DNA of 64,000 nucleotides, taken from assembly GCF_000027125.1 (NCBI RefSeq), contig NC_017626.1. The stretch is one strand, 5' to 3'. This document shows positions 28,705 through 28,902 of the stretch, piece after piece. The DNA is from Escherichia coli 042. GTDB taxonomy: Bacteria; Pseudomonadota; Gammaproteobacteria; Enterobacterales; Enterobacteriaceae. The translations under genes were made by a program, and so were the position numbers. The notes below the pieces were generated by a model. It was not told the origin of the DNA and searched no databases. It worked only from the letters and a program-made list of their open reading frames with translations. The stretch's first letter is position 1. Each line of letters opens with the position of its first letter.

Positions 28705-28902
28705 GTAGGCCAGATAAGACGCGTCAGCGTCGCATCTGGCATTTGCACTGAATGCCGGATGCGGCGTAAACGCCTTATCCGGCCTACGATTCCCATTATT
28801 TCAATGGATTACAACAAAGTAGGCCAGATAAGACGCACCAGCGTCGCATCTGGCATTTGCACTGAATGCCAGATGCGGCGTAAACGTCTTATACAGCCTA
28901 CG
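28705..28902. repeat. BIME: two tandem ~95-bp units each with two inverted REP sequences
   Basis: gtaggccagataagacgc...gcgtcgcatctggc / gccggatgcggcgtaaacgccttatccggcctacg repeated twice; second unit overlaps rcsC stop codon. Confidence 0.8.

What the first reader, a model, noticed from the sequence alone, without database searches (positions are those of the whole stretch)
28705..28902. Tandem BIME between convergent rcsB and rcsC, with rcsC stop codon inside the repeat
Two ~95-bp units each hold a pair of inverted REP sequences. The distal unit overlaps the last codons and stop of rcsC (28898..28900), so the REP structure may influence mRNA 3' end stability of both genes. A spurious 66-aa ORF (28809..29009) in the track is explained by this repeat.
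Basis: seen in the sequence. Interest (0 to 1): 0.3.

Follow-up and report, generated by a model that had tools for sequence, protein, structure and literature searches.

The report
Known REP array between rcsB and rcsC
This is an ordinary, already catalogued E. coli repeat (REP162, two pairs of hairpin-forming REP sequences) that sits between the ends of the convergent genes rcsB and rcsC. It overlaps the rcsC stop codon and most likely caps the 3' ends of both mRNAs.

Summary
Window 28705-28916 holds 1.9 copies of a 114-bp tandem unit. Each unit is a Z2-type REP, a 13-nt linker and an inverted Y-type REP. The rcsC stop codon (TAG, 28900..28898) is the TAG of the REP's conserved GTAG.

The element is already known. 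In K-12 it is EcoCyc REP162, and published maps of transcript 3' ends place ends at its hairpins. Each unit also passes Rfam's naRNA4 threshold, a family built on Y-Z2 REP pairs.

Three points are added here:
- The direct repeat runs 15 nt past the REP into rcsC coding sequence, so the 31-nt inter-unit linker carries a decayed copy of the last five rcsC codons. The array therefore grew by local tandem duplication, after the REP already abutted the stop codon.
- Copy number varies among E. coli genomes: about 18% have one unit, about 81% have two, and under 1% have three or four. The one-unit alleles look like repeated deletions.
- Most other Enterobacterales have a single bidirectional intrinsic terminator at this position instead.

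There is no U-tract terminator in the array. Published bicyclomycin data show Rho-dependent termination beyond it. The best mechanism is read-through, Rho termination inside the opposite gene, and exonuclease trimming back to the REP hairpins. Interest is low.

The parts
28696..28698 (+). rcsB stop codon TAA, 6 nt before the first REP
   Evidence: K-12 annotation
28705..28740 (+). Z2-type REP of unit 1 (GTAGGCCAGATAAGACGCGTCAGCGTCGCATCTGGC). It folds on its own at about -21 kcal/mol on either strand.
28741..28753 (.). 13-nt head-to-head linker ATTTGCACTGAAT (resembles the S motif), unit 1
   Evidence: aligned to the linker of the naRNA4 consensus
28754..28787 (-). Y-type REP of unit 1, an exact match to the Y consensus pattern. 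It folds at -19.5 to -21.3 kcal/mol.
28788..28818 (.). 31-nt tail-to-tail linker found only at this locus. Its first 15 nt (28788-28802, GATTCCCATTATTTC) are a decayed copy of the last five rcsC codons (28902-28916, GATTCCCGCGATTTC; 12 of 15 identical).
28819..28854 (+). Z2-type REP of unit 2 (-21 to -22 kcal/mol)
28855..28867 (.). 13-nt head-to-head linker, unit 2
28868..28901 (-). Y-type REP of unit 2, degenerate (3 mismatches to the consensus). It does not fold on its own in this strain (-7.3 kcal/mol, z -0.1). Its GTAG (28901..28898) contains the rcsC stop codon.
28898..28900 (-). rcsC stop codon TAG
28902..28916 (-). Last five sense codons of rcsC (K S R E S). They are part of the 98-nt direct repeat.
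28708..28784 (-). Rfam RF02564 (naRNA4) match, full model, 84.3 bits against a gathering score of 59.5 (62.9 bits on the + strand)
28822..28898 (-). Rfam RF02564 (naRNA4) match, full model, 64.3 bits
28704..28704 (-). Position equivalent to K-12 2316833, the published Term-seq 3' end of the minus-strand (rcsC-sense) RNA. It lies 1 nt past the last REP.
   Evidence: PMC7815308 suppl. 1; coordinates mapped through the rcsB stop
28898..31747 (-). rcsC, 949 aa
28048..28698 (+). rcsB, 216 aa from the annotated ATG

Best explanation
This is a BIME-2-type REP array, the one catalogued as REP162 in K-12. It has two tandem Y-Z2 REP pairs in the 199-bp gap between convergent rcsB and rcsC.

How it most likely works: the array is palindromic, so it forms very stable hairpins in both transcripts. 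It has no U-tract and is not an intrinsic terminator. RNA polymerase reads through it in both directions, and Rho terminates within roughly 150 nt inside the opposite gene. 3'-to-5' exonucleases then trim the RNA back to the REP hairpins, which define and protect the steady-state 3' ends of the rcsC mRNA and probably the rcsB mRNA. The rcsC stop codon lies inside the first hairpin and the rcsB stop lies 6 nt before one. Both genes therefore also meet the published '15 nt or less from the stop' condition under which REPs stall terminating ribosomes and lower protein yield.

History: in E. coli the array occupies the place where most other Enterobacterales have one bidirectional intrinsic terminator. 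It grew from one unit to two by a 114-bp local tandem duplication that carried 15 nt of rcsC coding sequence with it. It now varies from 1 to 4 units through unequal recombination.

Shown here or in cited data: identity and anatomy, the stop-codon overlap, the absence of a U-tract terminator, the copy-number variation, the minus-strand 3' end at the edge of the array, and Rho dependence downstream. Inferred: the exonuclease-barrier role at this particular locus, any effect on translation, and the direction and timing of the replacement of the terminator.
For: Anatomy and non-chance:
- Repeat and REP structure.
- naRNA4 (Y-Z2 pair) matches above Rfam's gathering score for both units.
- The whole region folds at -113.4 kcal/mol (z -11.5) on the + strand and -112.1 (z -9.2) on the - strand.
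- Three of the four REPs fold alone at -19.5 to -22 kcal/mol.
- Each Y-Z2 unit folds as one hairpin of -41 to -49 kcal/mol with the UAG paired.

Termination:
- No promoter-like site, and only one weak terminator-like match, which lies inside a REP and is no more than shuffles give.
- Published K-12 data (PMC7815308 suppl. 1 and 2). A minus-strand 3' end at 2316833 (window 28704) was seen in two growth conditions. A Rho termination region at 2317179(+) has reads of 274 upstream to 14 downstream untreated, against 246 to 276 with bicyclomycin (Rho score 22, p 1e-49). A second region at 2316687(-) has Rho score 2.6.
- Both Z2 hairpins of REP162 are listed among bidirectional terminators of convergent genes: 10.64898/2026.03.23.713779 suppl. 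2.

General models:
- Rho termination downstream followed by trimming to a stem-loop, dependent on PNPase and RNase II: PMC6061677.
- REPs as combined terminators and stabilisers, present in 207 of 704 convergent gene pairs.
- REPs within 15 nt of a stop codon stall ribosomes (Liang, Rudd and Deutscher 2015), as summarised in PMC12306157.

History:
- The direct repeat reaches 28916.
- The linker is found only at this locus (median 1 place per genome).
- The rcsC C-terminus ...RKSRES and its codons recur in other genera without a REP, so the coding copy is the original.
- Alleles with 1, 2 and 3 units.
- Other Enterobacterales have A-run, hairpin, T-run terminators in this gap.
Against: - No plus-strand (rcsB) Term-seq 3' end is curated at the array. 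The rcsB side therefore rests on the bidirectional-terminator list and on the downstream Rho region alone.
- The Rho regions come from 800-nt windows, so their positions are coarse.
- Genome-wide, genes with a terminal REP did not show longer mRNA half-lives. A stabilising effect at any one locus is therefore not guaranteed.
- All experimental data are from K-12. Its array differs from this window at several positions in every REP.
- The free variation in copy number and the decay of the stop-proximal REP suggest weak constraint on the exact architecture.
- The Liang et al. paper could not be read here, so it is not known whether rcsC or rcsB is on its list.
Confidence: 0.8

Rival explanations
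1. DNA-level role. The array is a transcription-independent strong gyrase site placed where convergent transcription of rcsDB and rcsC builds up positive supercoils. The RNA effects would be secondary.
For: BIME-2 elements are significantly enriched in gyrase cleavage sites in vivo. Y-type REPs are cut more often than Z2-type, and the signal rises when transcription is blocked (PMC6379681). This array has the Y/Z2 composition of BIME-2 and lies between convergent genes.
Against: Only a subset of BIME-2 elements carry cleavage sites, and no data for this locus were found. The stop-proximal Y REP is degenerate in this strain. Alleles with 1 to 4 units coexist. Other Enterobacterales manage with a plain terminator here. 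This role would not exclude the RNA role.
Confidence: 0.25
2. Translation brake. The main consequence is that ribosomes finishing rcsC (stop codon inside the hairpin) and rcsB (stop codon 6 nt upstream of one) stall. The mRNA is then cleaved and the protein is tagged by tmRNA, which keeps RcsC and RcsB levels low.
For: The published rule is that REPs 15 nt or less from a stop codon lower translation through stalling (Liang et al. 2015, as summarised in PMC12306157). That study used the nrdA-nrdB REP, which lies in this same window at 58952-59130. Here the distance is 0 for rcsC and 6 nt for rcsB, and the UAG is paired in the predicted unit hairpin in most alleles.
Against: Not tested for these genes in anything that could be read here. 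The stop-proximal Y REP is the weakest hairpin in all 19 alleles (-7.5 to -14.4 kcal/mol against about -18 to -22 for most of the others). That could mean selection has been eroding such a brake. The long Y-Z2 hairpin needs the distal arm to be transcribed before it can form.
Confidence: 0.3
3. No function. The array is a tolerated remnant of REP proliferation (REPs are thought to be spread by the REP-associated transposase TnpA-REP) together with local duplication, and it drifts neutrally.
For: Copy number varies from 1 to 4, with several independent-looking one-unit alleles. The sequence differs widely between strains and is a mosaic between units. One REP is decayed, and unit 1 has collapsed in a divergent lineage (L006).
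Against: Some hairpin-forming element is kept in this gap in essentially all Enterobacterales examined, and at least one unit is present in the alleles read in full here; about 98% of 5426 E. coli genomes match most of the rcsB-to-rcsC query. Transcript ends map to it. Since the ancestral terminator is gone, something must provide 3' end protection.
Confidence: 0.15
4. Source of a nucleoid-associated small RNA. The rcsC 3' UTR would be processed into 77-nt naRNA4-like RNAs that bind the nucleoid protein HU and help condense the chromosome.
For: Both units match Rfam naRNA4 over the full model, better on the rcsC-sense strand (84.3 and 64.3 bits). A stable minus-strand 3' end lies just after the second unit. 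The original report is PMC4550694.
Against: The Rfam model essentially describes any Y-Z2 REP pair; the nrdA-nrdB BIME also scores 82 bits. A 2026 study that includes an author of the original report found that REP325 and naRNA4 do not measurably compact the nucleoid and that REP-REP contacts are absent.
Confidence: 0.05

Closest known systems
REP162 of E. coli K-12 MG1655 (EcoCyc annotation; rcsB-rcsC intergenic region, K-12 2316828-2317026)
   Same: It is the same locus. The gap is 199 bp in both, with two Z2-Y units, the same 31-nt type of linker, and the rcsC stop codon inside the last REP.
   Different: The window is 95% identical to K-12 over 481 nt and 100% identical to strains 118UI and MS14387. 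Differences from K-12:
- The first Z2 REP in K-12 is the perfect-stem form (GTTAGTGTCTTATCTGGC); here it is the bulged form.
- The linker differs at 5 positions.
- The stop-proximal Y REP carries three clustered changes that abolish its own hairpin.
REP325 / naRNA4 (yjdM-yjdN; Rfam RF02564)
   Same: Tandem array of 77-nt Y-linker-Z2 units separated by spacers. It is transcribed as a 3' UTR and acts as a partly Rho-dependent attenuator and an mRNA stabiliser.
   Different: REP325 has six units, lies between tandem genes and has identical spacers. This array has two units (1 to 4 across strains) and lies between convergent genes. Its spacer is a decayed piece of rcsC coding sequence plus 16 nt of unknown origin, found only at this locus.
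nrdA-nrdB BIME-2 (window 58952-59130), the REP used to show translation control by REPs near stop codons
   Same: Alternating Y and Z2 REPs starting within 15 nt of a stop codon, with a naRNA4 match of 82 bits.
   Different: It lies between tandem genes of one operon. Its tail-to-tail linkers are short (about 10 nt, GGCTCGGTTT) and its head-to-head linker is 7 nt. Its first REP starts 9 nt after the nrdA stop codon rather than overlapping it.
Bidirectional intrinsic terminators between convergent genes (as in the rcsC-rcsB gap of Citrobacter, Enterobacter, Kluyvera, Serratia and others)
   Same: Same position and the same job, ending or protecting two convergent transcripts with one palindromic element.
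   Different: Those are single GC-rich hairpins flanked by an A-run and a T-run, in gaps of 31-110 bp, for example L007: TAAAAAAAGCCTGATGAGCGTCACGCCATCAGGCTTTTTT. The E. coli array has four hairpins and no U-tracts, and termination downstream of it depends on Rho.

Membership tests
E. coli REP / palindromic unit (Y and Z2 types) | [quoted passage not shown] | tested here: met
   All four elements start with GTAGG, two on the + strand and two on the - strand. Lengths are 34-36 nt.
E. coli REP / palindromic unit (Y and Z2 types) | Match to the multi-copy genomic consensus | tested here: met
   The Y pattern matches with 0 and 3 mismatches, with 5 matches in the window against 0 expected. Megablast of the region finds a median of 30 places per E. 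coli genome.
E. coli REP / palindromic unit (Y and Z2 types) | Forms a stable stem-loop with the conserved AA/GC bulge | tested here: met
   Three of the four fold at -19.5 to -22.1 kcal/mol with the bulge. The fourth (28868-28901) does not fold alone in this strain (-7.3 kcal/mol, z -0.1), though it does in K-12 (-14.4 kcal/mol).
E. coli REP / palindromic unit (Y and Z2 types) | Extragenic location | tested here: inconclusive
   The palindrome itself is extragenic. However, three of the four bases of the GTAG form the rcsC stop codon, and its G is the third base of the Ser949 codon.
BIME-2 | Y and Z2 units alternating in inverted orientation (definition recalled from Gilson/Bachellier; y-z2 mosaics stated in PMC8266576) | tested here: met
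   Order is Z2-Y-Z2-Y with alternating orientation.
BIME-2 | Variable number of tandem copies | tested here: met
   One unit (L002, L003, L090, L092), two units (the majority) and three units (L005) were seen. Up to 3 linker copies per genome implies 4 units.
BIME-2 | Canonical short extra-palindromic linkers (S head-to-head; s, l or r tail-to-tail) | tested here: inconclusive
   The 13-nt head-to-head linker aligns with the naRNA4 consensus linker. The 31-nt tail-to-tail linker is not a shared motif: it has a median of 1 place per genome and is unlike the roughly 10-nt linker of the nrdA-nrdB BIME. The consensus sequences of the l and r motifs were not available to compare.
BIME-2 | Bound and cleaved by DNA gyrase | not testable with these tools
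   Only the genome-wide enrichment is known (PMC6379681). No data for this locus were found.
Rfam RF02564 naRNA4 | Covariance-model score at or above the gathering threshold (59.5 bits) | tested here: met
   84.3 and 64.3 bits on the - strand and 62.9 on the + strand for unit 1. Unit 2 on the + strand scores 43.5, below threshold.
Rfam RF02564 naRNA4 | Exists as a discrete RNA that binds HU and associates with the nucleoid | not testable with these tools
   Only a 3' end at the edge of the array is documented. The nucleoid role of the family itself is disputed.
Intrinsic (Rho-independent) bidirectional terminator | GC-rich hairpin followed by a U-tract on each strand | tested here: not met
   No T-run or A-run flanks any hairpin. 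The scan finds one weak match inside a REP, no more than shuffles give. Read-through is restored fully by bicyclomycin in K-12.
REPs that down-regulate translation (Liang, Rudd and Deutscher 2015) | REP starts within 15 nt of the stop codon of the upstream gene | tested here: met
   For rcsC the stop codon is inside the REP. For rcsB the stop codon is 6 nt before the GTAGG. The rule is as quoted in PMC12306157.
REPs that down-regulate translation (Liang, Rudd and Deutscher 2015) | Ribosome stalling, mRNA cleavage and tmRNA tagging of the protein | not testable with these tools
   This needs experiments. The original paper was not available.

The most novel reading that the evidence does not exclude
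Replacing an ancestral bidirectional intrinsic terminator with a REP array made the 3' ends of both rcsB and rcsC dependent on Rho. Each transcript now runs about 150 nt antisense into the other gene, and the rcsC stop codon sits at the base of a hairpin. The 1-to-4-unit polymorphism would then be a heritable dial that sets RcsC and RcsB levels, and so the sensitivity of the Rcs envelope-stress system, differently in different E. coli lineages.
Probability: 0.1. Interest if true: 0.45.

Novelty: already known. Interest (0 to 1): 0.12.

Why it matters
It matters little beyond correct annotation. The element is a catalogued REP array of a well-studied class, and its likely role as a two-way protector of mRNA 3' ends with Rho termination beyond it fits current models.

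It does have some value as a clean worked example:
- A REP's GTAG supplies a gene's stop codon.
- A copy of coding sequence in the linker dates the REP-stop overlap to before the array grew.
- Natural alleles with 1, 2, 3 and probably 4 units exist (three are seen directly; four is inferred from linker counts). These could serve as ready-made material for testing how REP copy number affects a convergent gene pair that encodes a major stress-signalling system.

It also explains three spurious ORFs in the track.

Tried and rejected
- **Is the 31-nt linker a standard BIME tail-to-tail motif?** Rejected. A 35-nt query finds a median of one place per genome, always at this locus, and the linker is unlike that of the nrdA-nrdB BIME.
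- **Is the second half of the linker (28803-28818) a relic of the rcsB 3' end, as a simple tandem duplication of the whole gap would predict?** Only 5-6 of 16 positions match by my own count. This is not significant, and the origin stays unexplained.
- **Is the array an intrinsic terminator?** Rejected (bicyclomycin data).
- **Has decay of the stop-proximal Y REP freed the rcsC stop codon from structure?** Rejected. The Y REP alone is weak, but the Y-Z2 unit still folds as one hairpin of -41 to -49 kcal/mol that pairs the UAG in 15 of 19 alleles.
- **Are the last rcsC codons REP-derived?** Rejected for K-S-R-E, because homologous codons occur in Kluyvera, Erwinia and Pseudocitrobacter without a REP. 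It stays open for Ser949 and the TAG.
- **Close outgroups.** The protein search returned mostly gene fragments.
- **Papers and supplements.** The Liang et al. 2015 paper could not be fetched by DOI or PMC id. No supplements were held for PMC6061677 or PMC4550694. The RepRanger supplements do not mention rcsB or rcsC.
- **K-12 annotation.** The RefSeq K-12 feature table shown by the tool lists no repeat_region at this locus. The REP162 label comes from a preprint's supplement.

Full report
**1. What is in the sequence**

rcsB ends with TAA at 28696-28698. rcsC, on the minus strand, is a 949-aa ORF ending with TAG at 28900..28898. The 199 bp between them, and the first codons beyond, are repetitive.

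- The repeat finder reports two 98-nt direct copies, 28705-28802 and 28819-28916, 91% identical and 114 nt apart.
- Tandem Repeats Finder reports period 114, 1.9 copies, 90% matches and no indels.
- Each unit reads, on the + strand: GTAGG-type REP of 36 nt, then the 13-nt linker ATTTGCACTGAAT, then a 34-nt REP in the opposite orientation ending CCTAC.
- The first REP of each unit is the Z2 type. The second is the Y type. The unit-1 Y is an exact match to a degenerate Y consensus and the unit-2 Y has three mismatches. The pattern has 5 matches in the window against none expected.
- The units are joined by a 31-nt linker (28788-28818).

The region is far more structured than chance. It folds at -113.4 kcal/mol (z -11.5) on the + strand and -112.1 (z -9.2) on the - strand.

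**2. The stop codon**

On the rcsC strand the sequence reads ...AAA TCG CGG GAA TCG TAG GCT GTA TAA GAC G.... The stop codon is therefore the TAG of the REP's GTAG. This is the tetranucleotide that the REP-associated transposase requires without any tolerated substitution (PMC8266576). Its G is the wobble base of the Ser949 codon.

The 66-aa ORF at 28809..29009, and two further ORFs through the repeat, are mechanical by-products.

**3. It is a known element**

- The window is 100% identical over 481 nt to E. coli strains 118UI and MS14387, and 95% identical to K-12-derived strains.
- K-12 MG1655 has the same 199-bp gap and the same two units.
- A supplement of a 2026 preprint labels this K-12 locus REP162, 'Convergent'. 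It lists both Z2 hairpins (K-12 2316832-2316874 and 2316942-2316985, equivalent to window 28703-28745 and 28813-28856) among bidirectional terminators of convergent genes.
- Rfam's naRNA4 family, built on the 77-nt Y-linker-Z2 units of REP325, matches both units over the whole model. Scores are 84.3 and 64.3 bits on the rcsC-sense strand against a threshold of 59.5. It matches the nrdA-nrdB BIME in the same window equally well.

**4. How the array arose**

The direct repeat does not stop at the REP. It runs 15 nt further, into the last five codons of rcsC (GATTCCCGCGATTTC, 28902-28916). The counterpart is the first half of the linker (GATTCCCATTATTTC, 28788-28802), with 12 of 15 positions identical. 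By my own binomial arithmetic the chance of this is about 1e-5.

The coding copy is the original. Homologous terminal codons occur in genera that have no REP here:
- Kluyvera: AAG TCG CGG GAA TAA
- Erwinia: ...RKSRES then TGA
- Pseudocitrobacter: ...GAG TCG TAG

The linker occurs once per genome, only at this locus. So the array grew by a local 114-bp tandem duplication, not by insertion of a second mobile unit, and the REP already abutted the stop codon when that happened.

The other 16 nt of the linker match nothing convincingly.

A divergent lineage labelled E. coli (L006, 97% identical in RcsC) shares the linker but has unit 1 collapsed to one short palindrome. The duplication is therefore old.

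**5. Variation among E. coli**

| Units | Gap | Evidence | Share of genomes |
|---|---|---|---|
| 1 | 85 bp | 8 of 39 evenly spaced chromosomal hits; L002, L003, L090, L092 | about 18% |
| 2 | 199 bp | linker detectable in 4435 of 5426 genomes | about 81% |
| 3 | 313 bp | L005 | under 1% together with 4 units |
| 4 (inferred) | not seen directly | up to three linker copies per genome | under 1% together with 3 units |

rcsC stays 949 aa with its stop codon inside the REP in all of them.

The one-unit alleles are of at least three kinds, each equal to parts of existing two-unit alleles. L002 has the same RcsC protein accession as strain 118UI but lacks unit 1. These alleles look like repeated recent deletions by unequal recombination, not the ancestral state.

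The REPs are also mosaic between units and strains, and the Z2 REP exists in a bulged form and a perfect-stem form.

**6. What other bacteria have here**

In about 70 other Enterobacterales the convergent arrangement is kept. The gap is usually 31-110 bp and holds one GC-rich hairpin between an A-run and a T-run, which is a bidirectional intrinsic terminator. The rcsC stop codon is mostly TAA and is not inside any repeat.

Close Escherichia outgroups and named Salmonella were not recovered, so the time of replacement is not fixed.

**7. How it most likely works**

The array has no U-tract, and a terminator scan finds nothing beyond chance.

Published K-12 data fill the gap (PMC7815308):
- Term-seq finds a minus-strand 3' end at 2316833 in two conditions. 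This is 1 nt after the CCTAC of the last REP on the rcsC strand (window 28704).
- With Rho inhibited by bicyclomycin, plus-strand coverage across 2317179 changes from 274 upstream and 14 downstream to 246 and 276 (Rho score 22, p 1e-49).
- A weaker minus-strand Rho region lies at 2316687 (Rho score 2.6).

Both transcripts therefore cross the array, and Rho stops them inside the opposite gene. This fits two published models. In one, Rho-terminated RNAs are trimmed by PNPase and RNase II back to a stable stem-loop (PMC6061677). In the other, REPs act as combined terminators and stabilisers, and are found in 207 of 704 convergent gene pairs.

I take this as the best explanation for the rcsC side. 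It is a reasonable inference for rcsB, for which no plus-strand Term-seq end is curated at the array.

**8. Secondary and rival roles**

- *Translation brake.* Both stop codons are within 15 nt of a REP, the condition reported to stall terminating ribosomes. The REP used in that work, nrdA-nrdB, is in this window at 58952-59130. Whether RcsC or RcsB is affected is untested.
- *State of the stop-proximal REP.* The Y REP next to the rcsC stop codon is the weakest hairpin in all 19 alleles, and in this strain it does not fold alone. The full Y-Z2 unit still forms one hairpin of -41 to -49 kcal/mol that pairs the UAG. I therefore do not claim the structure has been lost.
- *Gyrase site.* Gyrase binding is plausible for the class but unknown for this locus.
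- *Nucleoid RNA.* This reading of naRNA4-like units has been contradicted by later work.

**9. Verdict**

The object is an already catalogued member of a well-known class.

The new details are the coding-sequence relic in the linker, the census of 1 to 4 units, and the contrast with the ancestral-type terminator. They are tidy but modest.

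Noticed in passing
window 58952-59130: A BIME-2 array sits in the nrdA-nrdB intergenic region. It has alternating Y and Z2 REPs with tail-to-tail linkers of about 10 nt and starts 9 nt after the nrdA stop codon. It gives an Rfam naRNA4 hit at 58999-59069 (82.3 bits). This is the locus used in the published work on REPs that stall terminating ribosomes.
   Followed up: partly
window 24954-25047 (+): The MicF small RNA lies upstream of rcsD (Rfam RF00033, 116.8 bits, full-length).
   Followed up: no
window 16850-16935: Another REP remnant: a Y-type REP at 16850-16883 on the minus strand (2 mismatches to the consensus), followed by a degenerate Z2-like sequence (TGATGCGACGCTGACGCGTCTTATCTGC).
   Followed up: no
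window 28722-28734 and 28836-28848; loci L001, L003, L005, L085-L097: The Z2 REP exists in two forms among strains and between units. One has the usual GC/AA bulge (...GTCAGCGTCGCATCTGGC). The other has a perfect 12-14 bp stem (...GTTAGTGTCTTATCTGGC), and there are intermediates. The four-base difference looks like hairpin-templated (quasipalindrome) correction or gene conversion rather than independent point mutations.
   Followed up: partly
window 28868-28901: The Y REP that overlaps the rcsC stop codon carries three clustered changes in this lineage (GCCA... and ...TATACAGCC). These abolish its own hairpin (-7.3 kcal/mol, z -0.1). One of them makes its inner arm perfectly complementary to the neighbouring Z2 arm. 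In all 19 alleles examined this REP is the weakest of the array.
   Followed up: yes
L006:2901-3058: A divergent genome labelled E. coli (SCPM-O-B-8794; 97% RcsC identity; RcsB ends ADKE) keeps unit 2 and the linker. Unit 1 is replaced by one short palindrome (GCAGGCCAGATAAGTGCCGAATGCCTTATCTGGCCTAC), as if the interior of the Z2-Y hairpin had been deleted.
   Followed up: partly
L020:2889-2903, L029:2886-2900 (rcsC 3' ends of Pseudocitrobacter and Kluyvera): Pseudocitrobacter ends rcsC with GAG TCG TAG G and has no REP. Kluyvera ends it one codon earlier (GAA TAA). It is therefore unclear whether E. coli's Ser949 and TAG predate the REP (which would then have joined at a pre-existing GTAGG) or arrived with it.
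   Followed up: partly
window 28003-28698: The mechanical ORF list starts rcsB at TTG 28003 (231 aa). The annotated and conserved protein starts at ATG 28048 (216 aa). That exact sequence is extremely widespread: the encoding-contig index lists it in 96,200 blocks of the assembly collection, of which 637 carrying contigs were read.
   Followed up: yes
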